The position numbers and the translations under genes were made by a program. From sequence record PQ850631.1: a DNA stretch of 64,000 nt. One strand, written 5' to 3'. Each line of letters begins with the position of its first letter. The stretch's first letter is position 1. The notes under the pieces are model-generated. The model ran no database searches. It was not told the DNA's origin and saw only the letters and a program-made list of their open reading frames with translations. This stretch comes from Escherichia phage VerenaGrendelmeier_Bas101. This document shows, in pieces, positions 1,858 through 58,388 of this stretch.

Positions 1858-1890
1858 ATTCATCGGCAAAGGATTGCCGCGAGTTTTATA

Positions 1891-2211: not shown

Positions 2212-2240
2212 TTGCCTAAGTTTTTTTCATTAGATATAAT
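2212..2240 (+). promoter_or_regulatory. sigma70-like promoter TTGCCT-17-TATAAT for the structural operon
   Basis: -35 at 2212-2217, 17-bp spacer, -10 at 2235-2240, about 25 nt upstream of the 2264 start. Confidence 0.4.
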
Positions 2241-9513: not shown

Positions 9514-9560
9514 ATAATTGCCGCCGTAACTGGCGGCCATCTCTCTGAGAGGAATCTGTA

Positions 9561-10028
9561 ATGATTAACGTTTCCGGTTTTGGCGCTTCGATTCGTTTGG
9601 TAGCATCAAACACTTTCCCTAATGGTGTGACCCTTTCTGATTTTGCAGATGATGCTGATCCGATTGACGCGCCGGACCTGCAAATCTCTGAGGCTGCAAT
9701 GGGCCTTAACGGTGACTTAGTAGTGTGGAACCGTGCAAACCCGCTTGAAGTAGGTGTGAACATCATCCCTACTTCTGAAAGTGATGTTAACTTGGACGTT
9801 CTTGCAGCTGCAAACCGCGTAGGCAAGCGCAAGAACTCCGCAAAAGACGTGATCACACTTGTGCTGACTTATCCTTCTGGAATGGTTATCACGCTAAACA
9901 AAGGCACCTTGACAACTGGTTCAGTAATTCCTGGCATCCAGTCTCAAGGTCGTGTGAAAACACGTCAATATCGCTTCAAGTTTGAGAACGTAGTCAAAAC
10001 TGGCGTGAGCAACCAAGAGATTTTATAA
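9561..10028 (+). CDS. tail tube-like protein
   Basis: 155 aa directly after sheath-like gene; N-terminus MINVSGFGASIRLVA; paralog of 10979-11476. Confidence 0.5.
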   Translation: MINVSGFGASIRLVASNTFPNGVTLSDFADDADPIDAPDLQISEAAMGLNGDLVVWNRANPLEVGVNIIPTSESDVNLDVLAAANRVGKRKNSAKDVITLVLTYPSGMVITLNKGTLTTGSVIPGIQSQGRVKTRQYRFKFENVVKTGVSNQEIL

Positions 10029-10357
10029 TGTATCAAATACCACTTGACAGCGTACCTAACCAGAATATCAGCTTTAACGTTGACGGTGCATATTGGCAGT
10101 TGCACATTTTTGCCGCTATCGAGCATATGTGTGCCGACGTATATCGCAATGGTGAACTTTTGATTCAAGGGGTGCGCTGTTTTGGTGGTATCCCAATGGT
10201 GCCTTATAAGTATCTCATGATTGGGTACGGTAATTTCATTTTCGACAGCGTACCTGATTATGAAAGGTTTAACTCAGGCGGCTGTAATCTATATTACATG
10301 TCAGAATCTGAGTTGGCTGAATTCCAGGCCACTGCTGAAGCGGAGTTTGCAATTTGA
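10028..10357 (+). CDS. hypothetical protein
   Basis: ATG overlaps upstream stop (TAATG). Confidence 0.4.
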   Translation: MYQIPLDSVPNQNISFNVDGAYWQLHIFAAIEHMCADVYRNGELLIQGVRCFGGIPMVPYKYLMIGYGNFIFDSVPDYERFNSGGCNLYYMSESELAEFQATAEAEFAI

Positions 10358-10710
10358 CAACTCTAACCATTGAAGTGAACGAAAATAATGACCTTTTTCT
10401 ACCTGATGGAAGAAACTTAAATATTCTTTCAGGAGAAAAAGCGATGGTGCAAGTAATCAAGGCCGCGCATCAGATGCGACTTGGTGAAGACTTGTACGAT
10501 ATAGAAAACGGGGTCGATTATTTGGGGACCGTTTTCAAGTCGCCCGTTGACGAAGACGGTGCGCGAAAGTCGATTGCAGATGCTATTCTGAAGAAAGCAG
10601 ACGTTGCCGGAATCGACTCATTGACTGTCACCATCCAAAACGGTATCCTTGGATTCACTGCAGAAGTGGTGACTATTTATGGCGAACGTATAAAGGTGAG
10701 TAATCAATAA
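10354..10710 (+). CDS. hypothetical protein
   Basis: TTG start overlapping upstream stop; start uncertain. Confidence 0.35.
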   Translation: MTTLTIEVNENNDLFLPDGRNLNILSGEKAMVQVIKAAHQMRLGEDLYDIENGVDYLGTVFKSPVDEDGARKSIADAILKKADVAGIDSLTVTIQNGILGFTAEVVTIYGERIKVSNQ

Positions 10711-10976
10711 TGGCACAAGTAATTCATTTTGCAAATGGCGTCATGAAATTTGGCGAAAAATTTGAAGACGCATCAGAGCTGTTTAATAAGAAGGTTGAGC
10801 CTGTTACAGAAATCAAAGAGCAGGTCGAAGAAAAGTCCGTTGAACAAAAACTCGATTTTGATTCCATGAGCGTTTCAGAATTGAAGTCTTATGCCAAAGA
10901 AAATGGCATAGACATCAAGGGTCTTTCTTATAAGGATGAAATTCTTGCTGCAGTTAAATCTGCATCTGCGGAGTAA
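10710..10976 (+). CDS. hypothetical protein
   Basis: AAGGTGAG RBS then ATG at 10710. Confidence 0.4.
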   Translation: MAQVIHFANGVMKFGEKFEDASELFNKKVEPVTEIKEQVEEKSVEQKLDFDSMSVSELKSYAKENGIDIKGLSYKDEILAAVKSASAE

Positions 10977-10978
10977 AC

Positions 10979-11476
10979 ATGGTCAATATTAGTGGATTTG
11001 GCACAAGCATTAGAATTGTCGCTCTTCAATCTTTTCCTGTTGGGCTGAATATCAGTTCTTTGTCTGATGACCAGGATTCGCTAATTATTGAGGAAGTTGA
11101 ATCAGTAGGTTATCAACTTACTTACGACGGCGGCATTTGCATATACGACAAAGCCGCCGTCGTTCGCGTATCCATTGCGGTCATTCCAAACACTGAAGAT
11201 GACATAAATCTTAAGCTTTTATTATCTGCCCGTAAAGGTGGATTCAAGTGGTTGCCAATTCAGGATGTGACATCAATGCTTATTACATATCCTGACGGTG
11301 GAAGGGTGGCATTCTCTAACGGAACAATAATCAGCGGTCCGCTTGGTGACTCCATAGAGCAATCAGGCCGTCGCAAGACAAACCGATACACATTTGTGTT
11401 TGCCAGCTACGGCGGCGCGCAGAGCACGTCTCAAATTGCCAAGGGCGTGGTGCAGAGCATATTGGGGTCCATTTAA
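10979..11476 (+). CDS. tail tube-like protein, paralog
   Basis: N-terminus MVNISGFGTSIRIVALQSFP parallels MINVSGFGASIRLVASNTFP of 9561-10028; similarity continues along the protein. Confidence 0.45.
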   Translation: MVNISGFGTSIRIVALQSFPVGLNISSLSDDQDSLIIEEVESVGYQLTYDGGICIYDKAAVVRVSIAVIPNTEDDINLKLLLSARKGGFKWLPIQDVTSMLITYPDGGRVAFSNGTIISGPLGDSIEQSGRRKTNRYTFVFASYGGAQSTSQIAKGVVQSILGSI

Positions 11477-12009
11477 TGGCTATCGATTTACTGTCATATA
11501 GTCTATCAAACAGAAGCTTCACGATAAAGAGCTTCAACCTTGGAGAAGTATCCACGCTTGGATGGGCCATAGTCAACGTCAAAATAAGACTCCAAGCGAA
11601 GATATTCAAAAACCAAAGGGAAGACGGCAGCTATATTGTCGATGGCAGAGTAAAGATGCCGCGAATACTCACTGTCACCGTGATAGCGCAAACGAAAAGT
11701 GCATCAGATGCAATAGCTAAAATGCTGCAAAACAGGTCGACTATATACACAATTAATTCCCGTGGTCTAATATTCGAACGTATGGTGCTGCAAAATAACA
11801 ACTTCAGCCAGGACGCTGACAATATAACGTCTCAGCCCATACAATTGGTCTTCCATGAGATATTAACACAGCAGGATGTGTCTATTCAAACAGCGCAGGC
11901 AGGCGACTCAACAGTAATAGAGCGCGGCATTGCATACATAAAAGAAACTTCTGCCAGCGTCACTGGCGTCGCTACAAAGGTGATGAATGGTATCAAGGGG
12001 ATGTTCTGA
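11476..12009 (+). CDS. hypothetical tail protein
   Basis: ATG overlapping upstream stop. Confidence 0.4.
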   Translation: MAIDLLSYSLSNRSFTIKSFNLGEVSTLGWAIVNVKIRLQAKIFKNQREDGSYIVDGRVKMPRILTVTVIAQTKSASDAIAKMLQNRSTIYTINSRGLIFERMVLQNNNFSQDADNITSQPIQLVFHEILTQQDVSIQTAQAGDSTVIERGIAYIKETSASVTGVATKVMNGIKGMF

Positions 12010-12569
12010 TGGACTTCGTTTCGATTCTGCTTTCTGGTCAATCTTTGACCATAACGAATGAGTCAACAGGTCTTCCTGTCTGGACAAGGCTTTCACCTGT
12101 TTCTGCAGAAATAACATCCCCAGCAGAAACAACTCAATTCCCTCTTGCTGGTACAGCCATGCAGGTTGTCGAAGTATCAAGCACGTCATCAGTAAGCAAT
12201 TTACAGGCGGCAAAGGTTGTAATGCCAGCCCATATGGCGTTAAACGTAATTTGCAATGACCAGTCTACAATTGAAAATATCATAAATTCATTTGATGATG
12301 ACGAAGTCACATTTTCAATAACTTCACGAAGCATCATTGCCAGTAAAATGTCGATGTCCGACGTTGAAATAACCCAGTCAGAAGAAAACTTGAATGGAGT
12401 CTCAATAGTAATAACCTTCGAGCAAACGTCATTTAGCATTCAAGGAAGCTTCGACCCTAAACAATCTGCAGACGAATCATCAAATGGTGTTGCTATTAAA
12501 GAACCAGTCAGTTTGACTACAACTGTGAGTTCGTTATATAATAAAATAAAATCAACAGTAGGAATATAA
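12009..12569 (+). CDS. hypothetical tail protein
   Basis: ATG overlapping upstream stop. Confidence 0.4.
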   Translation: MDFVSILLSGQSLTITNESTGLPVWTRLSPVSAEITSPAETTQFPLAGTAMQVVEVSSTSSVSNLQAAKVVMPAHMALNVICNDQSTIENIINSFDDDEVTFSITSRSIIASKMSMSDVEITQSEENLNGVSIVITFEQTSFSIQGSFDPKQSADESSNGVAIKEPVSLTTTVSSLYNKIKSTVGI

Positions 12570-12570
12570 A

Positions 12571-12987
12571 ATGAAGATCACCAACAAACAAACTGGTCGT
12601 ACAGTAGAAATTAAAATCAGCAAAATGACTGCGATGGAAGGCTGGAATATTCAGCGTCGCTTTGTCGAATTTGCAATGTCGAAAGACCCTGCTTTTCGTT
12701 CAGAGTATACGATGGAAGTGTTGAGCTTCGCAAAAGTCGAGCTTGATGTGGGCCAAGAAATCCCATTAAGTACTGGTGCACTAATTGACAACCATCTTGG
12801 TGACTGGGAAAACCTTAAAGAAGTCTTCGAAGCAGTCCTCATGGAGAACGGTATAAACCCAGATACTCACGCCGAGCGTGAAGGCTACTGGGAACAAGCT
12901 GGCGGCGAAATGGCTGCAGCATTCATCGGCGAATCGATGCGATTAATCGCGCCATTCCTCAGCGGCGAGACTCCAAACAAGGGGTAA
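12571..12987 (+). CDS. putative tail assembly chaperone
   Basis: Small acidic protein immediately upstream of tape measure gene. Confidence 0.3.
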   Translation: MKITNKQTGRTVEIKISKMTAMEGWNIQRRFVEFAMSKDPAFRSEYTMEVLSFAKVELDVGQEIPLSTGALIDNHLGDWENLKEVFEAVLMENGINPDTHAEREGYWEQAGGEMAAAFIGESMRLIAPFLSGETPNKG

Positions 12988-12990
12988 ACT

Positions 12991-15171
12991 GTGTCTGACT
13001 CATTAGAAAAATTTGTGCTTCAATATACGGTGGACTTGAAAGAGTCCATCAATCGTCTTGAGCAATTGCAAGATAAGGTTGATCAGACAAACAAAAAGGC
13101 GAAATCCGCTGGCAAAGATTTCTCTGGAGCATTCAAAGATGTTTTTGGCGAGCTAAAGCCGCTTACTGGTGAGCTAGGGTCAATTGACGGAATACTTGCG
13201 CGGCTGACATATCGTTTTGCCGCGCTCGTTCCTGTTGTCGCAGGATTGGCCGTCGTCGTCAAATCCATCGTTGATGTTCGAAAAGAATACGAAGCGCAAA
13301 GAAAGCTTGGTTTTGAAGCCGGACTCTCTCCAATGGGCGTCGAACAACTACAACGACAGTTGAATGAAAGTTCAGGTGGCATCCTTGGCGCACAGGGGTC
13401 GCGCGATTTAATCAGCAAAGCTTCTAATCTGGCATTCAATGCATACACCAACCCCGATGTGATGAACAAGGACAACTTGTTGTTGAACAAGATGGGGACA
13501 AGTCCTTTCAACAGTAACGGCGGCATCAAAGACACGAATCAGCTGCTTGATGAAATTGGAACAAAGCTGAGAAGTGTGAATGAGCAAACCGCTCGTGCTA
13601 TTGGTGCTCTGGCAGGTTTTACCGCCGATGAAGTCCGCGCCCTTCGCGAGCGCAACCAGTCTGTGAAAGAAAGCACACGCATAAGCGATGAGGAAACGGC
13701 AAAGCTGCAGCGCCAACAAGCTGCTCTTGAGACTATACGAAATAGTATGGGGCAAATTCAAGAAGATTGGCGGCGTATTGAACTGGTTATCGGTGAAAAC
13801 GTTATGCCTGCATTCTCGACGCTTGTCAGCAAGACCGCCGATACAGTCGAAGGATTCCAGATGATGTTCCAAAGAATGTCTGACGGATGGAGCGAATTTG
13901 TCGACAATTTCATCGCTGACTTGAAACACCCGTTTGATAAACAGGCGGCTGTTAACGAGCGTCACGAGCGTGCCGTTGATAGATGGATCACGCAGATGGC
14001 CGAAGGCGATGTGAAACGCCAGAGGAACCAGGAGCAAAACGCTGCTGAACAACGCTCTGCACAGGCTCTTTTTACTCGCGATATCAACCTGTTTTCAAGT
14101 GCCGTTTCAACCTTTGCTGGCGTGATTGATGAGCGTCAAGCTTGGGCGGCATGGGCAGGTGAAATCGGGCGCAGCGCAGGGCAATCCGCGATGCCTGGAA
14201 CACCAGCATTGAATACTGGCGCGACCGTAGGGAATAATCTTGGGTCAGGGAATCCGACAGCATATGACTCAATATATGAGGAAGCTTCAAAACGCTATGG
14301 CATACCTGTAGCGATGATGAAGGCTGTAACTGAAGTCGAATCTGGATTCAATCCAAATGCTGTGAGCGGAGCAGGCGCGACTGGTTTGATGCAAATCATG
14401 CCTTCTAACTTCAAGGGTCTTGGAATAACAGATGGTAATGATCCTCGACAAAACATTATGGGCGGCGCTCAACTTTTGAAAGAGTATCTGAACGCCGCCA
14501 ACGGCGATTGGAATCTTGCGCTGACGATGTATCACGGCGGCTACGACCGAAGCGGCTGGGGCAAGAACACACGCGCGTATCCTGGAAAGGTGATGGCCGC
14601 TCTCGCCCGACAATCCAATGGCGAGTATGCCACGACAGCGCCGCAAGGTGCACCAGTTACTCCAGTACTTAGCGGTAGCGGAGCGGAAGCGCCAAAGGGC
14701 CGTTATGCACCAGTACAAGGTCAATCGCGCCAAACGGTGCAATACAGGCAATTGCAAGAAGCCATTGCAGGATACCTGAACGTACCAGTTGAGCAGTTGA
14801 TGCAGGGACAAGTCAACAAAGGTGATATTGACTTTGCTCAAACTTACCTTAAGCTTGGCACGCAAAGGGATTATATTAAAAACATGCAACTGGCTTCAAC
14901 TCCAGGTGTAAGACCGAACATTCAAGCCGAAGCTATGAAAAACGCTCGTCTTGCTGCATTCCAACTTGAAGCATTCCAGAAATACGGCGGCGACCTTTCC
15001 GCGAATAGTCGACCTGGTGGGCGTGATATTACTATGGGTCAGAAAAACGTTGTCATCAACATCAACGGCGCTCAAGACCCACGCAGCACGGCATTCGAAA
15101 CGAAACGAGTGCTTGAACAAGATGATATCAACGACATAAACAACCTTACTGCTACACCTTTGAAGTGGTGA
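12991..15171 (+). CDS. tape measure protein with C-terminal lytic transglycosylase (SLT) domain
   Basis: 726 aa; coiled-coil N-terminal part, hydrophobic segment, SLT signature EVESGFNPNAVSGAGATGLMQIM...YHGGYD. Confidence 0.7.
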   Translation: MSDSLEKFVLQYTVDLKESINRLEQLQDKVDQTNKKAKSAGKDFSGAFKDVFGELKPLTGELGSIDGILARLTYRFAALVPVVAGLAVVVKSIVDVRKEYEAQRKLGFEAGLSPMGVEQLQRQLNESSGGILGAQGSRDLISKASNLAFNAYTNPDVMNKDNLLLNKMGTSPFNSNGGIKDTNQLLDEIGTKLRSVNEQTARAIGALAGFTADEVRALRERNQSVKESTRISDEETAKLQRQQAALETIRNSMGQIQEDWRRIELVIGENVMPAFSTLVSKTADTVEGFQMMFQRMSDGWSEFVDNFIADLKHPFDKQAAVNERHERAVDRWITQMAEGDVKRQRNQEQNAAEQRSAQALFTRDINLFSSAVSTFAGVIDERQAWAAWAGEIGRSAGQSAMPGTPALNTGATVGNNLGSGNPTAYDSIYEEASKRYGIPVAMMKAVTEVESGFNPNAVSGAGATGLMQIMPSNFKGLGITDGNDPRQNIMGGAQLLKEYLNAANGDWNLALTMYHGGYDRSGWGKNTRAYPGKVMAALARQSNGEYATTAPQGAPVTPVLSGSGAEAPKGRYAPVQGQSRQTVQYRQLQEAIAGYLNVPVEQLMQGQVNKGDIDFAQTYLKLGTQRDYIKNMQLASTPGVRPNIQAEAMKNARLAAFQLEAFQKYGGDLSANSRPGGRDITMGQKNVVININGAQDPRSTAFETKRVLEQDDINDINNLTATPLKW

Positions 15172-15175
15172 TAAT

Positions 15176-16048
15176 TTGAAAAAGAGAATCCTTAAAGTCA
15201 CCTTATCTATGCCGGATGGCACAAGCCAAGTGCTTGATGAAGGATTGATGCTTAGATGCCGAATCAAAAAGGCAGCACTTTCCGTGCAAAATAAGGCCAC
15301 AATCGAAGTCGCAGGATTGACAGGGTACTTAAGAGAGTACCTGCTTTCCAACTTCACCGCATTCAACAAACGTCTGCGTGATCAAGGCCAATTGGCGGCG
15401 AATTATGTCAACGTAACAATTGAAGCTGGATATAGAGAAGGCAACGTTGTTAGTAGCAACTTAGTCTACAAGGGGCAAGTCACAACGGTCGAGATAACAG
15501 CGCCGCCGCCGAACATCGTCATACGCATCACTTGCTACACCAACCAGATAAACAGGACTAAGTTTATCACTCAAGCTGCACCGTCAAACCCAACATTCAA
15601 AGAGTTTGTGGAGTGGTCGGCAAAGCAAATGGATATTGATACTGTTATATGCGATACTTCGATTAACAATCAGCGCCTTGTTAACCCAGGCCGCACAACA
15701 TATGTTGCAGCCGCCTTGTTGCTTGAGATTCAGAACTATCAAAGGAACTCTATTGCGGCATATATCGATGATGATACGCTCATCGTCAAGGATAAAGACA
15801 AAATTCTGAATCCAGAACAGATAACGGTGATTGAGGAATTTGTCGGAATACCGATGTGGAACGAGTGGGGTGCTGACTTCACTTGCATGTATAACGCGGA
15901 TTTGAAGCTTGCCCAAGGTGTGAAATTCAAATCAGTCTTAAACCCAAGCTTGAACGACACCACATTTGTCATCATGCAACTTGAATATGATTTAGCAAGT
16001 CGTGATGATATATTTACGGTGACGGGCGGCGTTGCACCATCGGCCTAA
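15176..16048 (+). CDS. hypothetical tail/baseplate protein
   Basis: TTG start after RBS-like GTGGTG; position after tape measure. Confidence 0.4.
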   Translation: MKKRILKVTLSMPDGTSQVLDEGLMLRCRIKKAALSVQNKATIEVAGLTGYLREYLLSNFTAFNKRLRDQGQLAANYVNVTIEAGYREGNVVSSNLVYKGQVTTVEITAPPPNIVIRITCYTNQINRTKFITQAAPSNPTFKEFVEWSAKQMDIDTVICDTSINNQRLVNPGRTTYVAAALLLEIQNYQRNSIAAYIDDDTLIVKDKDKILNPEQITVIEEFVGIPMWNEWGADFTCMYNADLKLAQGVKFKSVLNPSLNDTTFVIMQLEYDLASRDDIFTVTGGVAPSA

Positions 16049-16050
16049 AT

Positions 16051-16572
16051 ATGAGAAAGAATAAAGTAATTGAGCTGTTTGGAGTTACTTATGAAATACA
16101 TCAATTCAGCGCAATAGACGCGTTTGAAATGGTTGATGCGATAAGCATATTAACTCCACTTGAATTATTAAGTGAATGTCATGTTATTAAATATGACGGA
16201 ACTAAAGTCAGATTAAACTCTGAGAAGGCCATCAGTGAAGAAGTGAAAAGTGTGCCAAATCACTTGCCGCCCAACCTTGTATTGAAAGTTCTAATGGAAG
16301 CGGTAAAGAAGCACAATTTTGGATTCCTCAGTGATTGGAAAGGCACTAAGATTCCAAATAGATTCTTGGCTGACGTCCCGACCGTAGAGCCTAATTATCT
16401 TGAGCCGATGGTTGCAAGCCTAATAAACAATGGTCTTGCTTCGTTAAAAGAATTGGAAGAATATTATTCATTGCGTGATGCATTCGCTATGTTTGATGGA
16501 CTAATAGCAAAATCACTTAATGAAGCCTACTCAAACGAAGCTGCCATTAAAGAATCAAAGTCAAATCGCTAA
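16051..16572 (+). CDS. hypothetical baseplate protein
   Basis: ATG start. Confidence 0.4.
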   Translation: MRKNKVIELFGVTYEIHQFSAIDAFEMVDAISILTPLELLSECHVIKYDGTKVRLNSEKAISEEVKSVPNHLPPNLVLKVLMEAVKKHNFGFLSDWKGTKIPNRFLADVPTVEPNYLEPMVASLINNGLASLKELEEYYSLRDAFAMFDGLIAKSLNEAYSNEAAIKESKSNR

Positions 16573-16582
16573 AATATTGCTT

Positions 16583-16631
16583 ATAGACTCCTTATAGATT
16601 ATAATTTGTTGATCAGATATAAGGAGTCTAT
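16583..16631 (+). repeat. perfect 14-bp inverted repeat (ATAGACTCCTTATA / TATAAGGAGTCTAT) enclosing the RBS of the spike gene
   Basis: Arms at 16583-16596 and 16618-16631, 21-nt loop; right arm contains AAGGAG and abuts the start codon. Confidence 0.6.
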
Positions 16632-16632
16632 G

Positions 16633-17358
16633 ATGGCAGAGAAGTTAACTCAACTTACAAGCCCCAACCAAACTGACAAATCAAGTATGTTTGCCGCGCT
16701 GCAGGGAATGCTGGATCGTGGCAAGTATACCACTGACGGCATGATTCCTGCACAAGTAATATCTTATGACCGCAAACAGAATTTAGCAGTCATAAAGCCT
16801 GTTATTCATTTCGTAAGTCTTGATGATAAACCAGTGGAGCGTCAACCTCTGGTGTCAATTCCTGTATTGGCAATCGGCGGCGGCGGCTTTGTAATCAACT
16901 TTCCTTTGAAAGAAGGTGATTTGGGCTGGATATTCGCTGGCGACCGCGAGTTGTCGACATTCCTTGAAGAATTGAAGCCGACCGCGCCTACCAATGGTCG
17001 CGTGAAAACTTTCGCTGATGGACTGTTCATACCGGATGTATTCCGAAAATACACCATAAGCGGAGAGGATGCAGGCTCAATGGTAATTCAGTCACTCAGC
17101 GGCGCTGTACGAATTGCATTAAGTGATGACTCGATAAACATAACCGCATCAGCTGGGGTAAACGTGAAAACACCAATCACCACTATCGACCAACAACTGA
17201 TAGTGAATGGAAAGGCAACATTCAATGGTGGTATAGAAGGGAAAGAAGGAACGACGGCAACGCTTCCGACTGGCACCACAATCGGCGGCACAAATGTATC
17301 CACTCACGGGCACATAGGTAACGGACCTGGAAACAGAACTGGGGACATGATAGAATGA
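16633..17358 (+). CDS. baseplate central spike protein (gpV / Mu gp45-like)
   Basis: OB-fold-like region PVLAIGGGGFVINFPLKEGDLGWIFAGD; C-terminal GTNVSTHGHIGNGPGNRTG. Start chosen at ATG with AAGGAG spacing. Confidence 0.55.
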   Translation: MAEKLTQLTSPNQTDKSSMFAALQGMLDRGKYTTDGMIPAQVISYDRKQNLAVIKPVIHFVSLDDKPVERQPLVSIPVLAIGGGGFVINFPLKEGDLGWIFAGDRELSTFLEELKPTAPTNGRVKTFADGLFIPDVFRKYTISGEDAGSMVIQSLSGAVRIALSDDSINITASAGVNVKTPITTIDQQLIVNGKATFNGGIEGKEGTTATLPTGTTIGGTNVSTHGHIGNGPGNRTGDMIE

Positions 17359-18626
17359 GTGCACAATATTCTTACATAGTAAGCACTGGTGTAATAACCA
17401 TCGACACAGCCGATTTGCTGGCTGACGTTCAGAATGAATGGATTGAGTCATTAGGGGTCGGGCTTGACGTTGATGCATCGACACCGCAAGGCACCCTAAT
17501 CGCGACAGAGACTTTGGCAAGAACTTCAGTCATGAAGAACAACGCCGAGCTGGGAAGTCTCATCAACCCTAATTATTCATATGGCGTATACCTTGATGCC
17601 ATCGCGGCACTGCTTGGTATTGAGCGAACGAAAAACATCAGCACGATGTTGAAAGGAATTACCGCAGAAGGAACGCCGCTGTTGGAAATTCCTGCTGGAA
17701 GTTTGCTGACGGATTCAAACGGCACATACTGGTATGTTCTTGAAGACGTTCAAATCACTTCGACTGGCAAGACAAGCAACATGACTCTTGCATCAAAAGA
17801 TTATGGCTCATTTACGGTTGCCCCTGATGAAGAGTTTACAGTGGTGCAAGGTTATGACGTCATCGGATGGTCAAGAACGTATTCAACATCAGCAACGACG
17901 ACTGTGCCAGGAACGCAATACATGGGCGACGGAGCGTTAAAGGCCGCTCGCGTTAAGCGTCTTTACCAGCAGGGCATTGCATCGCTTGGTGCCATTCGCG
18001 CTCGCGCCATGTCGGTCGACGGCGTGGAATCTGTGATGGTCGTGGAGAACGACACGGGATTGCCTGGAACGGTACGCGGCATCACCTTTTCAACGCCTAA
18101 CGGTGTTTGGGTGTGCGCAAGCGGAACTTTCGATAAGCAAGTTTTTGCTGAGACTATTTTCAAAGCGAAAATGGGCGGCCAGCCGTGGGACTTTGGTGCT
18201 GCCAACCAGGGCAATCCAGTCAACTCTCCTGATGGAATAGAAGTTGTCGACGAAGAATCACAACTGTCTTATTTCGTGAAGTTCAACACTGCAGTAATAT
18301 ATGACTTGTATGTCGATATTACTGTTTCAAGAGGCACCGCAACCGCCGATGCGGAATCTATTATTGCCGCTGTGTTGAATTACGGCAATGGCAATTTTAA
18401 CGGTGAGCAAGGGTATACAGTAGGTCAATCTCAATCTTCTTTTGAAATTGCTTCAGCAGTGTCTTGCGAGTATCCAGGCTTGTATATTAAAGATTGCAAA
18501 ATTGCAGCAGTTAAAAGCGGACAGGCAGCGCCAAATTATCCATCCGATTACGGCAGCGAGTGGATTGCCAATCCTTGGGATAAGGCGAATACTATGCGCG
18601 GCTTCATCAACGTTAAATTTGTGTGA
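17355..18626 (+). CDS. baseplate J-like protein
   Basis: 423 aa, position after spike; ATGA overlap with upstream gene. Confidence 0.55.
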   Translation: MSAQYSYIVSTGVITIDTADLLADVQNEWIESLGVGLDVDASTPQGTLIATETLARTSVMKNNAELGSLINPNYSYGVYLDAIAALLGIERTKNISTMLKGITAEGTPLLEIPAGSLLTDSNGTYWYVLEDVQITSTGKTSNMTLASKDYGSFTVAPDEEFTVVQGYDVIGWSRTYSTSATTTVPGTQYMGDGALKAARVKRLYQQGIASLGAIRARAMSVDGVESVMVVENDTGLPGTVRGITFSTPNGVWVCASGTFDKQVFAETIFKAKMGGQPWDFGAANQGNPVNSPDGIEVVDEESQLSYFVKFNTAVIYDLYVDITVSRGTATADAESIIAAVLNYGNGNFNGEQGYTVGQSQSSFEIASAVSCEYPGLYIKDCKIAAVKSGQAAPNYPSDYGSEWIANPWDKANTMRGFINVKFV

Positions 18627-43958: not shown

Positions 43959-45629
43959 ATGTCAATTAATAATGACAATCTTCCAGAGGATACAGGTGAT
44001 GAATTTGGTGCAATCTTTGACGAAATTCAAGATGCAGGCGTTTCGGAAGAAATGCAGGCAGCAGAGCAGCAAGGCACCAGAGCTAAAATCAGCCTTCAAC
44101 ACAAAGCCGTTGAAAAAGATTCAGAGCGCATGGAGTGTTACGGTGAAGAAGACTTGGTTGAAAGAGCACGCTTGCTCGCCTCACTTCAGGTAATCAAGTT
44201 CCCTCACTACAAGCCGACCAAAGATGACTTCGTTCTACAGGCAGACCGGACGAGTGACATGAACCGCTATGCGGTGTTCGACGCGTTGTTTGATAAGGGA
44301 AGTGGCATTGTTCCATTCCCTCACAAAGATACTTTTCGTGGGCGCTTAGTCGACCATCGCGGCGAAACATTCACTGACCGTACCTTGGAAGTCACAGAGA
44401 TAGTTGCCGCTGTCGACGCAGCAGGGCTGTCTAACCCAAACTCACGTCAGGTTGCTCAATCCTATAAGGAATGGGCCATGCGTTATCAGCGCGACGACCT
44501 GATGGACTTCTTCTACAAGAAGCTGCCTGAATGGGACGGTACTGCGCGCATCGAGAAATACCTTATCGAGCTATTCCGACCGTTCGATACAGAGTTAAAC
44601 CGACAAATCGGTGTGTATTTTTGGCTATCGCTCTACAACCGCCTGACCAACCCTGGCTGTCAAGCGCCAATCTCCATCGCGCTCATCGGCGGCCAGAACG
44701 CAGGGAAGAGTTATTTTAGCAAGCTGCTTTGCGAAGCTATTATGAACGACCGCCACGCAACACCGATTCCGTTGAACTTAGCCGCGCAAAACTTCAACCC
44801 GTTCTTGCGAGCTATTACGGGTCGCTCGATTATCGCGAACGTCGGCGAGATGACAGGCTTTAAAAAGGCCGACATCGAAAACATGAAAGCATTCCTGACT
44901 AAGACGGAAGATGACCTGGACTTCAAATTTGAAGATACGCAGGTTAAACCACGCCAGTGGATTGCTATCATGGACGGCAACGAATACGCAGGCATGCAGC
45001 GTGATGACACGGGCAACCGTCGTGTGTATCCTATCTTTGTTGGCCAACTCGCCGACAAGGACGGGCAACCGAACTGGTCGAAAGATTTCCAAGCTGACCT
45101 TTCCACTTTGAAAGAAGACGTTTGGCAGCTTATGGCTGAGTGCGCTGCGTGGATGGAGAAGCACGGCGAAGCAGGCTATAACGCGTTTGTTGGTGAAACA
45201 TCTCGCATGCTTACTGAGTTCAGTAAAAACGAGATGGAACGCGCTCGCGGCGTTATCCGTGATGAGATGGTTGACAACGACCTTGTTGAAGTCGTCATCA
45301 CCGCGCCTTATGATCGACATCACAGCGGACGCTGGCACATCACCAGTGGTGCTATTGCTATGGGATTCAGAGCGAAGTGCGGCAAGTCGCCTTTCTCTCG
45401 TACCCTTGCGCCGCACATGTCGAAGCTTGGTTTTGAGCCTGCAACCTATCGCAACCAGCGCGGTTACTTTACGCCGCTGATTAAGAATGAAGCAGGGGAA
45501 TACATTTCTGATTTGATGACCATCTTAGCGTATCTTATCCGCGATGAGTCTGACCCTGAAGATATTGAATTCTTGAAGAAGGTTATCGAGCGTAAACGTT
45601 CTTTGGGAAGAGATAAGGATGAATTCTGA
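43959..45629 (+). CDS. P-loop NTPase, VirE/D5-like primase-associated helicase
   Basis: 556 aa; Walker A IALIGGQNAGKSY; AGGAGGA RBS. Confidence 0.5.
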   Translation: MSINNDNLPEDTGDEFGAIFDEIQDAGVSEEMQAAEQQGTRAKISLQHKAVEKDSERMECYGEEDLVERARLLASLQVIKFPHYKPTKDDFVLQADRTSDMNRYAVFDALFDKGSGIVPFPHKDTFRGRLVDHRGETFTDRTLEVTEIVAAVDAAGLSNPNSRQVAQSYKEWAMRYQRDDLMDFFYKKLPEWDGTARIEKYLIELFRPFDTELNRQIGVYFWLSLYNRLTNPGCQAPISIALIGGQNAGKSYFSKLLCEAIMNDRHATPIPLNLAAQNFNPFLRAITGRSIIANVGEMTGFKKADIENMKAFLTKTEDDLDFKFEDTQVKPRQWIAIMDGNEYAGMQRDDTGNRRVYPIFVGQLADKDGQPNWSKDFQADLSTLKEDVWQLMAECAAWMEKHGEAGYNAFVGETSRMLTEFSKNEMERARGVIRDEMVDNDLVEVVITAPYDRHHSGRWHITSGAIAMGFRAKCGKSPFSRTLAPHMSKLGFEPATYRNQRGYFTPLIKNEAGEYISDLMTILAYLIRDESDPEDIEFLKKVIERKRSLGRDKDEF

Positions 45630-54016: not shown

Positions 54017-54038
54017 GAGGGCCGATTGGCCCTTTTTG
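54017..54038 (+). terminator. rho-independent terminator ending the early block
   Basis: GGGCCGATTGGCCC followed by TTTTT. Confidence 0.65.
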
Positions 54039-54039
54039 T

Positions 54040-54290
54040 TTGCCTGTGGTATGTGAGGATTTATTATCGGATAAAGCGATTGATTTGTGCAAATCTATTA
54101 GAGGGTCATGGGTAGTGAGGATTGTGACGTGAATTTTGTGTCTTGAATATGTGTGCGAATCTGGAAGATTATTGTACTGTGGTGCTGTGGGATTGTAGAG
54201 GGAATCACTAGGAATTGGAGCGTGTACCGTGGTGTGTGGTCCTGTAGGCTGCGCCGTCTATGGGATTGTCGCTTGAAATTAAAAAGGAGA
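54040..54290. repeat. non-coding GT-rich tract with GGGATTGT / GAGGATTGT repeats
   Basis: Strong G+T skew on plus strand; no ORF; repeats near 54118, 54192, 54262. Confidence 0.5.
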
Positions 54291-54326
54291 TATAGTTAGC
54301 TGGCTAACCTTACGCATAGAATTTAA

Positions 54327-54615
54327 GCGTATAATGACGTAAGATTTGGACCTATCCGTAGTTCACTCCACACACTTCTATGGTGCGCCGCGACTGGGTT
54401 CAGTGGTACATCTTACGGATGATACGGATGATACGCGTCGCCGCTATACTTTATACAACTTTGAAAAAAACAATTAACTCCATTTTGAATTAATTTAAAT
54501 TAATTTTTTTCTACATCCTCATACTTATACTAAACTTATATTTATACGTATTATCCGTAAGATATAAGTAAAAACAAAGACTTGCGGCAATACGGATGAT
54601 ACGTCACGATACGCT
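54327..54615. repeat. second iteron-like region homologous to 1891-2160
   Basis: Shared blocks GCGTATAATGACGTA, ATCTTACGGATGATACG...GCCGC, AT-rich AATTAATTTAAA tract, TATCCGTA copies. Confidence 0.65.
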
Positions 54616-54778
54616 TCAACCAGCCAGCAGCGGCTAAGTCATTGATTTGCATAACAAGCGACGAAAGGGATGGATTTCTTTTATACGTATCAAACAGTAC
54701 ACCACGCACCACGGTCCGTTATCCATCCAGCACTATGATTTGTGTACGTTTATAGCCATAATGAACATCAATCTGCAC

Positions 54779-54807
54779 TTGAATATAATGTCCATCCATT
54801 GTATAAT
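54779..54807 (+). promoter_or_regulatory. sigma70-like promoter TTGAAT-17-TATAAT
   Basis: -35 at 54779-54784, -10 at 54802-54807, upstream of the TerS-like ORF. Confidence 0.35.
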
Positions 54808-54817
54808 TCACACTATT

Positions 54818-56298
54818 AATTTGCACTATGGGATTTTGCACTATGAGTCAAGATTATGTAGCGATGCCTGAAGACTTTGAAGACCCGCGATTCGCAGAGC
54901 ACAATCAGGCTTTATTCGATGAGTTCATTGACCTTGTTATTCAGGGCCATGACATGCGCGCAGCTTTTGCACTAGTATTTGGAATGGAAGTTGCAACGGA
55001 TAACTACACTGGCCAGCGAATCCTTTGCACGCAACGCAATCCATACTACAAGATGCGCTTCAAAAAGCGTATGGAAGAGATGCCACTCAAGGATTTGTGG
55101 AGCGTAAAAGGTGCAATTCACAATTTGGTCAAGCTTGTGCGTGATCCAGAAGTCGCGGCGTCAGCCAAGCTTAATGCTATTCGTGAACTGAATATCATCT
55201 ATGGCATCACGATGATTGATGAAAACGGCAATAGTAAAATGGGCCGTTCTATGGACGATTTCTACAAGGATTTTGGAGAGGCGGCCAAAGAAGGCGAGCA
55301 ATTCTCCCGCCACTAGCCAATTTGCACTATAAAACGGCCCTAGAACACATTGTCTCCACTTCTAGGGCCATCGGTAATACGACGGGGAAGGTTGCAACCG
55401 TAAACGCGTTAGAAAGTGTATTATTATAAGTCATCTTTTAGTCACCTTACGTAACAATTTACGACCTTCAACCGTCCAATCGAACGACTCCACCAGCAGA
55501 TTCGCACTATAACCTAAGATGATGCGCCCTTTCTCGTTATCGACCCGCCAACAAGTCTCGAATAGCATTCGATTTGCACTATTAACTATCGCCGCAACGC
55601 GCGTTGGGTAAACGCAATTTGCACTATGGTCGTAAAGGGATAAGGTGCGACCACTTCCGATGGACAATGTAGCGATGAGAATAAGCGTATTCATAAGCCA
55701 CCAATTTGCACTATGAAAAGCGACCCCGAAGGGCCGCCATTCGATTAGATAATCTGGAATGTGTAGGACTTGTTGCCGAACTCAAAGTTCAAGCGTCCAG
55801 CTTCTTTAAGCTTCATGCGGAAGCGAATGTGCTTACTATCCGGTAAGCCCAGCGCGGCGAACGCCACGCGGACCGATTTGAACTCGCCTACACCCTCGAC
55901 CATAACGCCGTTACGCGTGAGACGCTTTTGCGCCACTTCCTTGTTATCCCAACTTTTTGCAATACCTTCGCTATTCGAACGGCGATGGGAAGGAGTTCCA
56001 TTTTGCACTACGCAATTTGCACTATCGTTTAGGCCGCTTTTAACGAAGGCTTCATACTCTTCGTCGGTCATCGCGTCGAGTTCTTCCTGGGTCGGCTCGG
56101 CCTTTTTAACGACCGCACGCGCCTTATGCGTTTTTACATCGCTGGACACTTCCTCGCGCGGCTTCGCGTCGGGAATGGGCGATTCGTTGGACGGCTCATC
56201 GAGCGCGTTTAAGGACTCGATTAACGCGATTACGCGAGTCTCGGCGGTACGGCGGTCCGCAAATTTCTTAATCGGCTTCGAACCGGAATTTGCATTAT
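54818..56298 (+). repeat. strand-specific array of about 10 copies of the 12-mer AATTTGCACTAT (and one-mismatch variants)
   Basis: Copies at 54818, 54833, 55319, 55499, 55571, 55616, 55703, 55999, 56014, 56287, all in the same orientation, irregular spacing, crossing coding and non-coding DNA. Confidence 0.75.
54828..55316 (+). CDS. terminase small subunit-like DNA-binding protein (orphan; start ambiguous 54828/54843)
   Basis: HTH-like GHDMRAAFALVFG followed by LKDLWSVKGAIHNLVKLVRDPEVAASAKLNAIRELNIIYGIT; no large terminase gene adjacent. Confidence 0.35.
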   Translation: MGFCTMSQDYVAMPEDFEDPRFAEHNQALFDEFIDLVIQGHDMRAAFALVFGMEVATDNYTGQRILCTQRNPYYKMRFKKRMEEMPLKDLWSVKGAIHNLVKLVRDPEVAASAKLNAIRELNIIYGITMIDENGNSKMGRSMDDFYKDFGEAAKEGEQFSRH

Positions 56299-56371
56299 AA
56301 AATGCAACGAGGTCGGCGGTCTTAGTTGCGATAACGTCGCCGCTAGTCGAGAAACGATTTAAGCTAACCAT
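55745..56371 (-). CDS. hypothetical protein (208 aa)
   Basis: Long ORF with codon usage distinct from the structural genes (AAG, CGC, TCG-rich); contains embedded 12-mer copies. Confidence 0.4.
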   Translation of the reverse strand: MVSLNRFSTSGDVIATKTADLVAFYNANSGSKPIKKFADRRTAETRVIALIESLNALDEPSNESPIPDAKPREEVSSDVKTHKARAVVKKAEPTQEELDAMTDEEYEAFVKSGLNDSANCVVQNGTPSHRRSNSEGIAKSWDNKEVAQKRLTRNGVMVEGVGEFKSVRVAFAALGLPDSKHIRFRMKLKEAGRLNFEFGNKSYTFQII

Positions 56372-56451
56372 AATGAACTCCTATTTGTTAGGGCGCTAGG
56401 CGCGAAAGAATTTTATTAAAGCGCCGCGCGCGACGCTCTAAAAATCCTCTC

Positions 56452-56766
56452 TTACTCTTCGTCGTCTTCGATTAATTCGAGGGCGAAGGCGTAAGCTTTG
56501 CTATCGTAATTAACTAAAACGGCGAGTTCGAACTCGTTAATAAACGCCGTTTTACCGCATAAATTTAATTCCGCATCGACTTCGAAGAATCCGTTTTCGT
56601 CGCGCTCTAAGCGAGAAGCAGCGAGTTGCTCGATTACCGTCGCGTCGTTAATTTCTTCGCCTAAGCGAACGCCGGAGAATTTCGCGAGAATTTCGCCGTA
56701 AGTAAGCGTAACGCCCTGGACTTCGGCGGTTGCGTTTTCGAGGGTAAAGCGGGTAACGATAGCCAT
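56452..56766 (-). CDS. small acidic protein (104 aa)
   Basis: Strongly acidic, ends ...LIEDDEE. Confidence 0.45.
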   Translation of the reverse strand: MAIVTRFTLENATAEVQGVTLTYGEILAKFSGVRLGEEINDATVIEQLAASRLERDENGFFEVDAELNLCGKTAFINEFELAVLVNYDSKAYAFALELIEDDEE

Positions 56767-56906
56767 AATAAACTCCTAGTTGGGAGAGGCGTTAACGACC
56801 TATTCGTTAACTCATCCCGTCCCGATATGAGTACATTATAATATAGTGTAGAAAAAAGTAAAGCACTTTTTCGATAAAAATGCGATAAATTATTTTATCT
56901 TTTTTC

Positions 56907-56934
56907 TTTACTTCTTCGTACACTCGCGTATACT
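56907..56934 (+). promoter_or_regulatory. sigma70-like promoter TTTACT-16-TATACT with conserved GTACACT spacer and TTGTTTATATCGAGA leader
   Basis: Near-identical architecture to 57305-57333. Confidence 0.45.
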
Positions 56935-56988
56935 TGTTTATATCGAGACGGGCGATGGCCCTTCCTTCTACTAGCATCGGGAGTTTTA

Positions 56989-57293
56989 TTATGACCACTT
57001 TAATCTCTTCTATCCTTACTTACGACGAAGACCGTTTAACCGTTCGCTCTCTTATCGCCGCCGTTAACGCGGAACTAGAATCCACCATTATTAAGGTCCG
57101 CGCGGTCGCTTTCGTCGGCCTTTCCTTCGACGATATTAAGTACGCCGAACGTAGCGCCATCCGCTTCGCGAAGACCGACGACGAAGCCGTTACCCTTATC
57201 GAGACGGTTACGCCGCGCGGCGAAGCGTTAATTATCGTCGAGTATATCGACGTAGAAGGCGATAAGGCTTATAAATATTTTATTGCAGAATAA
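56989..57293 (+). CDS. small acidic protein (101 aa)
   Basis: ATG at 56989; acidic. Confidence 0.45.
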
Positions 57294-57304
57294 CGAAAAA
57301 GTGC

Positions 57305-57333
57305 TTTACTTCTTCGTACACTAAGACTATAAT
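57305..57333 (+). promoter_or_regulatory. sigma70-like promoter TTTACT-17-TATAAT, paralog of 56907-56934
   Basis: Shares CTTTACTTCTTCGTACACT and the GTTTTATATCGAGAG leader. Confidence 0.45.
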
Positions 57334-57400
57334 GTTTTATATCGAGAGGGGATGAGGTAGCGAATAGGTCGCTACCCGCCCGACCAACTAGGAGATTATT

Positions 57401-57691
57401 ATGATTACTTTAGCCGCTATCCGTTCCGCTCGCGTCGAGACTTCCGAAAACTCTAACGTATTTGGCGAAACCTTAGAGAGCGTTTATCTCTCTAACGTAG
57501 ACGCAACTATCGAACCTATTTATGAGCCGATCAACTTCCTCGACCTTTACAAGTATCGCGACGAGGACATCGTATCATCCCGCGTAACGATTAACGGCTT
57601 CGTCTATACGATTACCGAAATCGGCGGCGAATATCTCGCTGTACCGCAACTCGGCGGCGAAGTAACTTATTTTAAAATTGTCTCCTTATAA
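57401..57691 (+). CDS. small acidic protein (96 aa)
   Basis: GGAG RBS, ATG at 57401. Confidence 0.45.
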   Translation: MITLAAIRSARVETSENSNVFGETLESVYLSNVDATIEPIYEPINFLDLYKYRDEDIVSSRVTINGFVYTITEIGGEYLAVPQLGGEVTYFKIVSL

Positions 57692-57710
57692 TATCCTTCC
57701 GTTACTAATA

Positions 57711-57736
57711 GGCCGCGCTTAGTCGCGGCTTTTCTT
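57711..57736 (+). terminator. rho-independent terminator
   Basis: GCCGCG...CGCGGC stem followed by TTTTCTT. Confidence 0.6.
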
Positions 57737-57854
57737 CGTCCCTATCTCGATGCGCTTCTCCGCGAAAACTCCTTTATCCTTCCCTTCGTCGTCGCATAAT
57801 CTTCGTCGAGATGCGCCTTAGTTCGCATAACAGGTATTACGTTAAATGGAGAAC

Positions 57855-57931
57855 ATCGCGTAAGTCCTTGTTTTATATAGACACCTATATCGGACCGTTA
57901 GGGCGGGTCGCGTAAGTCGTTGTTTTATAAA
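57855..57931 (+). repeat. direct repeat pair TCGCGTAAGTC(C/G)TTGTTTTATA
   Basis: Copies at 57855-57879 and 57907-57931; shares TTGTTTTATA with the leaders of the two promoters upstream. Confidence 0.55.
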
Positions 57932-58055
57932 GGCGCAAAACTTTCCCTTCGTTCCGAACTAAAACGAGGAATATGCCGACCCTTCGCCCGAAAATAGTAC
58001 GCATGCGAAATCACATGCATCTCGAATAATCCCCACCGATATTATCCTACACGCA

Positions 58056-58118
58056 ATCATTCGCTTTCGAATCATTATGCTTCATATTATTATGCGTCGA
58101 ATCATTCGCTTTCGAATT
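58056..58118 (+). repeat. direct repeat pair AATCATTCGCTTTCGAAT
   Basis: Copies at 58056-58073 and 58101-58118, each with a TTCGAA palindrome. Confidence 0.55.
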
Positions 58119-58205
58119 GTAACGCTGGAAACTGTAACGGCGATTGATTATTGCGTTCGTGTGGTTTTTAGGGCATGGGTCTTTTGGTGCGTTTTGGTGC
58201 TTGAT

Positions 58206-58318
58206 GGAATTTGCGGTACACTAATCAAAATACGACACATTTGGTCCACTAACTTTTCAAAGAAAAAGTCCTAGACAGTACCGTACTATTTTGTACCCAC
58301 AGGAATTTGCAGTACACT
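58206..58318 (+). repeat. direct repeat pair GGAATTTGC(G/A)GTACACT
   Basis: Copies at 58206-58222 and 58302-58318; combines the AATTTGC core with the GTACACT promoter-spacer motif. Confidence 0.5.
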
Positions 58319-58388
58319 CCTGCGCGGCAGGCAAAATAAAGGGCCGCCCTAAGCGACCCACGATTCATGGTTAAATCAGCAACACCCA

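What the first reader, a model, noticed from the sequence alone, without database searches (positions are those of the whole stretch)
54327..54615. Second copy of the iteron/AT-rich regulatory region, upstream of an orphan TerS-like gene
This copy lies about 200 bp upstream of the TTGAAT-17-TATAAT promoter and the TerS-like ORF, 52 kb from the first copy. Both copies precede rightward transcription units. If they are late-activator sites, the TerS-like gene is co-regulated with the capsid operon although physically separate; if they are origins, the phage has two.
Basis: partly seen in the sequence, partly recalled or inferred. Interest (0 to 1): 0.55.

Follow-up and report, generated by a model that had tools for sequence, protein, structure and literature searches.

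The report
Phage packaging start site with twin
The flagged region is the spot where this E. coli phage (a Wifcevirus) cuts its DNA to start filling capsids, and its look-alike 16 kb away is a conserved twin that reads the same lineage-specific repeats but whose job is still unknown.

Summary
Window 54327-54615 (module T) and ~1885-2160 (module P) share one architecture: a CGTATAATGACGTA box, TACGGATGA 9-mers, a ~100-bp AT-rich core and inverted 9-mers. These cores are the two lowest-GC spots in the 64 kb. The window is a Wifcevirus, and four independent GenBank records with terminal repeats start at window base 54482, inside the AT core of module T. So T holds the left physical end of the virion DNA; the direct terminal repeat is 54482-58184. 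The downstream ORF is a true small terminase, homologous to phage E217 TerS (PDB 7UXE, E 6e-34). The packaging start maps to the equivalent core in Pantoea phage Kyle and in Pseudomonas Pbunaviruses. Cut-to-repeat spacing is constant: 41-47 nt on the left and 63-71 nt on the right. Both modules exist in five lineages. Each lineage has its own repeat sequence, shared by its two modules, so one phage protein probably reads both. Best reading: T is a pac-type packaging initiation site. P is a conserved paralogue of unresolved role (second terminase site, origin or regulatory site). Whether TerS or the VapE-like primase-helicase binds the repeats is open.

The parts
54327..54615 (.). Module T (the finding): repeat arrays on both sides of an AT-rich core. 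It contains the packaging cut that forms the left genome end.
54328..54341 (+). CGTATAATGACGTA box. Its only other copy in the window is at 1891-1904 in module P.
54414..54435 (+). Left arm: two tandem TACGGATGA units (54414-54422, 54423-54431) plus GATACG. It is followed by a CGCGTCGCCGC G+C box. The inner repeat ends 46 nt before the cut. A further reverse unit lies at 54353-54361.
54445..54545 (.). AT-rich core, the lowest-GC segment of the window. The cut falls between 54481 and 54482 (AATTAACTCC|ATTTTGAA).
54551..54613 (.). Right arm: reverse unit TTATCCGTA (54551-54559), GCGGCAA box (54584), forward TACGGATGA (54591-54599), and GATACG at 54598 and 54608.
54482..58184 (+). Direct terminal repeat (3,703 bp) of the virion DNA, placed by homology to WFH, Mansfield and Ro157lw.
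   Evidence: PMC6563267, PMC6753283
54779..54807 (+). Sigma-70-like promoter TTGAAT-17-TATAAT in front of the TerS gene.
54843..55316 (+). Small terminase gene (an alternative upstream ATG lies at 54828). It lies inside the DTR, so each virion carries two copies.
54730..56026 (+). Array of 9-10 same-strand (A)ATTTGCACTAT / GCACTA motifs just inside the left end. It crosses genes on both strands and is conserved in the SRR26188688 relative and in phage Kyle.
1885..2160 (.). Module P (the 'first copy'), a paralogue of T. Parts: box at 1891-1904; reverse unit 1905-1913; forward unit 1944-1952; AT core ~1975-2050; three reverse units 2052-2080; forward variant 2111-2119; two reverse units 2134-2151. 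It lacks the AACTCC|ATTTT cut sequence.
1864..1879 (+). Terminator-like hairpin that ends the upstream operon, just before module P.
2212..2240 (+). Sigma-70-like promoter TTGCCT-17-TATAAT in front of the head-maturation protease gene (2264-3685).
43959..45629 (+). VapE-like primase-helicase gene, the rival candidate for the repeat-binding protein.

Best explanation
Window 54327-54615 is the packaging-initiation (pac-type) site and the left physical end of this Wifcevirus genome.

Shown:
- Terminase-generated virion DNA begins at base 54482, in the middle of the AT-rich core.
- The 3.7-kb direct terminal repeat runs from 54482 to 58184.
- The small-terminase gene starts about 360 nt inside the end.

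Inferred:
- The lineage-specific 9-bp repeats on both sides of the core are docking sites for a phage-encoded sequence-specific DNA-binding protein. The most likely candidate is the small terminase encoded next door.
- This protein assembles on the two arms, deforms the easily melted core, and places the nuclease about four helical turns to the right of the inner left repeat.
- The twin module upstream of the head-protease operon (1885-2160) binds the same protein. In Wifcevirus it lacks the cut-site sequence and is probably not cut.
- Its conserved role is unresolved. It may be a second terminase assembly or synapsis site, an origin, or a regulatory site for the head operon.
For: 1. Four independently produced records that include the terminal repeat (WFH, WFC, Ro157lw, Mansfield) all start at ATTTT(G/A)AA, which is window 54482. 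The literature reports a ~3.7-kb terminal repeat (PMC6563267) and a 3,673-bp repeat predicted by PhageTerm (PMC6753283).
2. The ORF at 54843-55316 matches the E217 small terminase structure 7UXE at E 6e-34. That protein was defined genetically and structurally.
3. The same location holds in other genera. The 3,603-bp DTR of Pantoea phage Kyle starts in the AT core of its TerS-proximal module. In Pbunavirus JG024 the nanopore read-start hotspot at 59,376 +/- 5 lies in the homologous core. At least 5 Pbunavirus records start at that same place.
4. The geometry is constant across four lineages with unrelated repeats. The nearest left repeat ends 41-47 nt before the cut, and the nearest right repeat begins 63-71 nt after it.
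5. There is selection on the sites. Left of the cut the sequence is non-homologous between Wifcevirus lineages, yet each keeps TACGGATGATACGGAT-type units at the same distance.
6. The cut sequence AATTAACTCC|ATTTT is invariant in the genus and in a relative with 69% TerS identity, but is absent from module P.
7. The module stays next to the TerS gene in every lineage examined, including BcepF1.
Against: - E217 TerS was reported to show no appreciable DNA binding in vitro (review PMC9611059).
- A pure pac model does not explain why a second, uncut module is conserved across genera and is nearly invariant within the genus.
- Repeats flanking an AT-rich core are equally typical of replication origins.
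- The phage has a VapE-like primase-helicase whose C-terminus diverges faster than its core. In E217 this gene ends 230 nt upstream of module T.
- A separate, genus-spanning oriented GCACTA array just inside the end could be the real terminase recognition signal.
- No end mapping was done on this very isolate. The terminus is transferred by homology (92-95% identity, exact 40-mer match).
Confidence: 0.72

Rival explanations
1. Both modules are replication origins of the iteron type with an AT-rich unwinding element. They would be read by a lineage-specific initiator, with the VapE-like primase-helicase (43959-45629) as candidate, as in SaPI Rep/ori, P4 ori/crr or SPP1 oriL/oriR. The packaging cut would merely share the TerS-proximal origin. 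This is not exclusive of the packaging role of module T.
For: - The architecture is repeats flanking the two least stable segments of the genome.
- Repeats are lineage-specific and shared by both modules, as expected for initiator-iteron co-evolution.
- The VapE-like protein has a conserved core (82-92% identity) and a fast-evolving C-terminal ~150 aa (47-70%) between Wifcevirus and a relative whose repeats have shifted.
- In E217 this gene lies immediately upstream of module T.
- This model explains module P without extra assumptions.
Against: - No DnaA boxes occur in either module.
- GC skew simply follows gene orientation.
- A published Pbunavirus skew analysis places its minima in the replication-gene region, not at the modules (PMC12390725).
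- The constant cut-to-repeat spacing in four lineages points to coupling of the repeats with the nuclease.
- No initiator has been identified by homology.
Confidence: 0.2
2. The repeats are binding sites for a phage transcription factor (late activator or repressor). This factor would co-regulate the TerS gene and the head operon from the promoters downstream of each module.
For: - Each module lies between a terminator and a sigma-70-like promoter of a rightward unit.
- Earlier PB1-like papers noted AT-rich boxes and motifs in intergenic regions and guessed at a phage sigma factor. They also predicted a promoter inside the P core of JG024 (PMC3008698).
- Phage 14-1 has a second, phage-specific promoter class (PMC10914365).
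Against: - No module precedes the TerL or portal genes or any other late gene block. Motif hits in Mansfield 1-17500 outside the two modules are scattered singles.
- The repeats are symmetric around a 100-bp core that lies 70-350 nt upstream of the promoters, which is unusual for an activator site.
- The model does not explain why the genome end sits in the core in three genera.
Confidence: 0.07
3. The resemblance is a chance or neutral remnant of an old duplication with no present function.
For: None beyond the general possibility.
Against: - Shuffle controls exclude chance.
- Both modules persist in phages of E. coli, Pantoea, Salmonella and Pseudomonas with concerted change of the repeat sequence.
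- Module P is almost invariant across six genomes whose flanking genes differ.
Confidence: 0.01

Closest known systems
pac sites of phages P1 and SPP1, and lambda cosB/cosN (from established knowledge, not tested here)
   Same: - Repeated short protein-binding elements lie on both sides of, or next to, the terminase cut.
- The central segment is bendable or AT-rich.
- The site sits immediately upstream of, or within, the small-terminase gene.
- Spacing between binding sites and cut is fixed.
   Different: - The packaged product here has a fixed 3.7-kb direct terminal repeat rather than headful permutation or cohesive ends.
- The repeat sequence is unrelated to those systems.
- Binding by TerS is not shown.
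- A conserved uncut twin exists elsewhere in the genome.
Phage T4 gene 16 / gene 19 pac-like sequences (Black's terminase synapsis model; from memory)
   Same: - Two homologous sites a few to many kb apart are proposed to be bound by the small terminase.
- The two sites flank the large-terminase gene.
   Different: - The T4 sites are short sequences inside genes. These are 300-bp intergenic modules with AT cores.
- The separation here is 16 kb.
- There is no evidence of synapsis or amplification here.
Iteron origins: SaPI Rep/ori, P4 ori plus crr, SPP1 oriL/oriR, lambda ori (from memory)
   Same: - Lineage-specific short repeats flank or adjoin an AT-rich, easily melted segment.
- P4 and SPP1 have two separated repeat clusters read by one initiator.
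- A primase-helicase with a variable C-terminus is present.
   Different: - One of the two modules here contains the packaging cut.
- No initiator has been assigned.
- No replication data exist.
T7 concatemer junction with the SRL/SRR short-repeat arrays and the end-proximal origins phiOL/phiOR (from memory)
   Same: - The phage has direct terminal repeats.
- Arrays of short repeats lie next to the ends.
- Origin-like elements occur both at the ends and at an internal site roughly 15-25% from the left end.
   Different: - The T7 repeat is 160 bp, and its elements depend on T7 RNA polymerase promoters.
- This phage has no RNA polymerase gene.
- Its terminal repeat is 3.7 kb.
E217 / JG024 (Pbunavirus) terminase system
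   Same: - The TerS is homologous, and the TerS gene is separated from TerL.
- Both modules are homologous in position.
- The packaging start lies in the same core.
   Different: - Pbunaviruses are reported as headful and circularly permuted (PMC12390725, PMC10913387). Wifcevirus and Kylevirus have fixed DTRs.
- The repeat sequence is AATTACC/GGTAATTT instead of TACGGATGA.

Membership tests
Packaging initiation site (pac/cos-type terminase site) | Contains a physical end of the virion DNA | tested here: met
   Four DTR-containing Wifcevirus records begin at window 54482. The same holds for Kyle and for Pbunavirus read starts and record starts. The result is by homology, not by end mapping of this isolate.
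Packaging initiation site (pac/cos-type terminase site) | Linked to the small-terminase gene | tested here: met
   The TerS gene (7UXE homologue) starts 361 nt to the right of the cut. The linkage is kept in every lineage examined.
Packaging initiation site (pac/cos-type terminase site) | Repeats are bound by terminase (TerS) | not testable with these tools
   Only indirect evidence exists. Cut-to-repeat spacing is constant, and the second N-terminal helix of TerS varies between lineages. E217 TerS was reported not to bind DNA in vitro.
Packaging initiation site (pac/cos-type terminase site) | Required in cis and sufficient for packaging | not testable with these tools
   Needs plasmid-transduction or deletion experiments.
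Iteron-type replication origin | Clustered short repeats next to an AT-rich unwinding element | tested here: met
Iteron-type replication origin | An identified initiator that matches the repeats, or host DnaA boxes | tested here: inconclusive
   No DnaA boxes were found, and no known initiator family appears among the neighbouring ORFs or in the annotation. The VapE-like primase-helicase with a variable C-terminus is only a candidate.
Iteron-type replication origin | Compositional or experimental sign of initiation at the site | tested here: inconclusive
   GC skew tracks gene orientation. No replication data are available.
Upstream activator sites of a co-regulated late regulon | Sites lie upstream of promoters of the regulated units | tested here: met
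   Promoter-like sites occur at 54779-54807 and 2212-2240.
Upstream activator sites of a co-regulated late regulon | Present at the other late (packaging and structural) operon starts | tested here: not met
   There is no repeat cluster upstream of TerL or portal in Mansfield 1-17500, nor elsewhere in the window.
Small terminase (TerS) for ORF 54843-55316 | Sequence homology to an experimentally defined TerS | tested here: met
   phmmer against PDB gives 7UXE (E217 TerS decamer), E 6e-34, over residues 7-152. Pfam and PHROGs give no TerS name.

The most novel reading that the evidence does not exclude
The whole PB1-like supergroup (Pbunavirus, Wifcevirus, Kylevirus and Salmonella and Burkholderia relatives) may use a two-site system. 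One lineage-specific DNA-binding protein would read both the pac site and a twin module 16 kb away in front of the head operon. That would physically or functionally couple packaging initiation to replication or to head-gene expression. A polar GCACTA array inside the end would act as a separate orientation signal. The same initiation site would serve either headful or fixed-DTR packaging, depending on the genus.
Probability: 0.3. Interest if true: 0.75.

Novelty: new variant of a known kind. Interest (0 to 1): 0.55.

Why it matters
- Pbunaviruses are among the most used therapeutic Pseudomonas phages, and Wifceviruses are candidates against O157. Their genome ends have been disputed, and no packaging signal has been defined.
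- A sequence-level definition of the pac site makes the mechanism directly testable. The definition covers the repeats, the core, the exact cut and the constant spacing.
- It also helps the design of synthetic or rebooted genomes and informs the risk of transduction.
- The conserved twin module, with repeats that change in concert, is a clean natural experiment for finding the protein that reads them.
- The same initiation site serves headful packaging in one genus and fixed 3.7-kb terminal repeats in others. This gives a handle on how phages switch packaging mode.

Tried and rejected
- GC skew as an origin marker: it only follows gene orientation.
- Rfam on both modules: only sub-threshold chance hits.
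- DnaA and IHF consensus scans: no DnaA box, and a single IHF-like match at 54635, outside the module.
- Pfam and PHROGs on the TerS ORF and neighbouring DTR ORFs: no informative names.
- Iterons at the right DTR boundary: none. That end has different features.
- Whether module P is ever a record start or end in ~290 Pbunavirus records: only E215 starts inside the P core. That matches chance, with about 0.4 expected.
- Lokareddy et al. 2022 (E217 terminase paper) and the TSS tables of the 14-1 cappable-seq paper could not be read.
- Co-variation of the TerS helix or the VapE C-terminus with repeat type: both vary, so this does not discriminate between them.

Full report
**Identity of the window**

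The region around the finding and the region around the first copy both match 28 phage records of the genus Wifcevirus at 92-98% identity. These are E. coli/Shigella myophages such as WFH, WFC, ECML-117, FEC19, Mansfield and Bas98-100. These phages have genomes of about 68 kb. They are distant relatives of the Pseudomonas PB1-like phages (Pbunavirus) (PMC11990801).

**The observation**

Window 54327-54615 (module T) and about 1885-2160 (module P) align over their whole length. From left to right both have:
- a CGTATAATGACGTA box, whose only two copies in the window are at 1891 and 54328;
- forward TACGGATGA units followed by a CGCGT(T/C)GCCGC box;
- an AT-rich core of about 100 bp;
- reverse units, and then further forward and reverse units.

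The statistics:
- Eight of the nine exact TACGGATGA 9-mers lie in the two modules.
- Thirteen of the sixteen TACGGAT 7-mers lie in the two modules.
- The local alignment score is 47, against 12.2 +/- 1.8 for shuffles.
- The two cores are the two lowest-GC 150-nt segments of the 64 kb.
A terminator-like hairpin at 1864-1879 precedes P.

Phage Mansfield is annotated as opened at the boundary of a 3,673-bp direct terminal repeat predicted by PhageTerm (PMC6753283). WFH and WFC were published with a terminal repeat of about 3.7 kb at both ends of the record (PMC6563267).
- The first 40 bases of WFH match the window exactly at 54482. The last 40 bases of Mansfield's unique region end at 54481.
- WFC and Ro157lw also start at the same base.
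- The right end of the repeat maps to window 58184 in WFH, Mansfield and Ro157lw. The WFC record runs 81 nt further.

The finding therefore straddles the left physical end of the virion DNA. The cut lies inside the AT-rich core (AATTAACTCC|ATTTTGAA), and the DTR is 54482-58184.

**The downstream gene**

Pfam and PHROGs give no name for the ORF. It matches PDB 7UXE, the decameric small terminase of Pseudomonas phage E217, at E 6e-34 over residues 7-152. A review of small terminases records two points about E217: its TerS gene is far from TerL, and the protein showed no appreciable DNA binding in vitro (PMC9611059). The 'orphan' position is thus a family trait. The gene lies inside the DTR.

**Comparative evidence for the packaging role**

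- Within the genus. The sequence left of the cut is non-homologous between lineages beyond about 70 nt. Each lineage still keeps TACGGATGATACGGAT-type units at the same distance, with further related boxes further left. AATTAACTCC|ATTTT is invariant.
- SRR26188688 relative (metagenomic; TerS 69%, protease 70% identity). It has both modules and the same cut sequence.
- Pantoea phage Kyle (TerS 43% identity). Its DTR is 3,603 bp and again starts in the AT core of the TerS-proximal module.
- Pbunavirus JG024. It is reported as headful and permuted, and 36 of 161 long nanopore reads start at 59,376 +/- 5 (PMC10913387). That position lies in the core of the homologous module. At least five Pbunavirus records (Ab28, PB10, PAP8, Pa204, PA8P1) begin at that same place.
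- Geometry. In four lineages the nearest left repeat ends 41-47 nt before the cut, and the nearest right repeat starts 63-71 nt after it, although the repeat sequences are unrelated.

Together this makes module T a packaging initiation site with high confidence.

**The twin module**

Module P sits upstream of the head-maturation protease gene (DUF2213). That is about 16 kb to the right of T on the real genome. It is present in Wifcevirus, the SRR relative, Kyle, E217 and Salmonella phage PCSE1.

An unbiased k-mer comparison shows that each lineage has its own repeat, shared by its two modules and rare elsewhere:

| Lineage | Repeat | In the two modules | Elsewhere |
|---|---|---|---|
| Wifcevirus | ATCCGTA | 13 | 3 |
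| SRR relative | CGTATCA | 14 | 3 |
| Kyle | AATAACC | 13 | 0 |
| E217 | AATTACC | 6 | 1 |
| PCSE1 | CGTTATA | 12 | 0 |

Except between Wifcevirus and its close SRR relative, there is essentially no sharing between lineages. The TerS-proximal module of BcepF1 uses TAGTTAC. This concerted change argues that one phage-encoded protein reads both modules and that both are functional.

Within Wifcevirus, P from about 1960 to 2270 is almost invariant across six genomes whose flanking genes differ. In this window P has one fewer left-arm unit than the other five genomes. In Wifcevirus, P lacks the AACTCC|ATTTT cut sequence. Only one of 291 Pbunavirus records opens inside P, which is consistent with chance. 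So there is no sign that P is cut.

**Mechanism and rivals**

The best-supported reading is as follows. The repeats recruit a phage DNA-binding protein to both arms of T, and the terminase nuclease is placed at a fixed distance in the deformable core. This resembles P1 pac, SPP1 pac or lambda cosB/cosN, which I cite from established knowledge.

Who binds is not settled. TerS is the neighbour, and its second N-terminal helix differs between lineages. However, the VapE-like primase-helicase (43959-45629) has a C-terminal ~150 aa that diverges much faster than its core. In E217 its gene ends 230 nt upstream of module T. Repeats flanking an AT core are also the signature of SaPI-, P4- or SPP1-type origins. 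The origin model explains P naturally and is not exclusive of packaging at T.

Evidence bearing on the other tests:
- No DnaA boxes were found.
- GC skew is uninformative.
- Rfam finds nothing.
- The late-activator idea is the weakest, because no module precedes the TerL or portal genes. Earlier PB1-like papers did note AT-rich boxes and motifs of unknown function in intergenic regions (PMC3008698).

**Novelty**

The DTR boundary itself is already annotated in GenBank. The following appear in none of the papers I could search or read:
- the repeat/core architecture of the site;
- its conservation as the packaging start across headful and DTR genera;
- the constant cut geometry;
- the paralogous twin with concerted repeat evolution.

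It is a new variant of a known kind of element.

Noticed in passing
window 54730-56026 (+ strand); L017 9889-10869; Kyle NC_048796 477-1478: The most clustered 7-mer of the whole window is TGCACTA, within (A)ATTTGCACTAT. There are 9-10 copies in 1.3 kb just inside the left end, all on the + strand (12 on + against 1 on - in 64 kb). They cross the TerS gene and minus-strand genes. Two of them contain the ATGs at 54828 and 54843. The same oriented GCACTA array is present in the SRR26188688 relative and in Pantoea phage Kyle, so it is conserved across genera while the iterons are not. It may be a polar packaging or other end-related signal.
   Followed up: partly
Kyle NC_048796 255-1972; L018 323-1824; window 55490: Kyle has 9 exact E. 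coli Chi octamers, all written CCACCAGC on the top strand, within 2 kb of its left end. The metagenomic relative L018 has 6. By textbook reasoning this orientation would be active against RecBCD entering at the left end. The window has only one such site in the DTR.
   Followed up: partly
window 58207-58226 and 58303-58320; Kyle just right of 3603: GTACACTAATCA lies 25-40 nt outside the right DTR boundary in both the window and Kyle. GGAATTTGCrGTACACT occurs twice in the window. This could be a right-end signal or a promoter element.
   Followed up: no
window 58039-58126: Two 43-nt direct repeats (ATATTATyyTrCr..AATCATTCGCTTTCGAAT) lie about 60-145 nt inside the right end of the DTR.
   Followed up: no
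window 54040-54320: A G/T-rich non-coding stretch (GC skew up to +0.55, many GTGG motifs) lies between the last early gene's terminator (about 54019-54045) and module T. It is replaced by unrelated sequence in other Wifcevirus lineages.
   Followed up: partly
window 1944-1952: This phage has one TACGGATGA unit in the left arm of module P, where five other Wifcevirus genomes have two. This is a 9-bp indel in an otherwise nearly invariant region.
   Followed up: yes
E217 MF490240 58488-59108 (gp77); JG024 PJG24_078; Mansfield CDS 125-283: Annotated 'hypothetical protein' ORFs overlap the TerS-proximal module or its leader in several records. They are probably not genes.
   Followed up: no
E215 NC_042080 position 1 (= E217 12803): One Pbunavirus record starts inside the AT core of the protease-proximal module. 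This is within chance expectation, but worth a look in raw reads.
   Followed up: partly
window 56844-56876 / 57291-57323: A 33-nt inverted repeat (88% complementary) has arms 414 nt apart, inside the DTR.
   Followed up: no
all modules (e.g. window 54438-54445, 54584-54590, 1955-1965, 2155-2165): G+C boxes of the type TGCCGC/GCGGCA recur inside the modules of every lineage (Wifcevirus, Kyle, E217, PCSE1, BcepF1), although the iterons differ. The motif is common genome-wide, so its significance is untested.
   Followed up: partly
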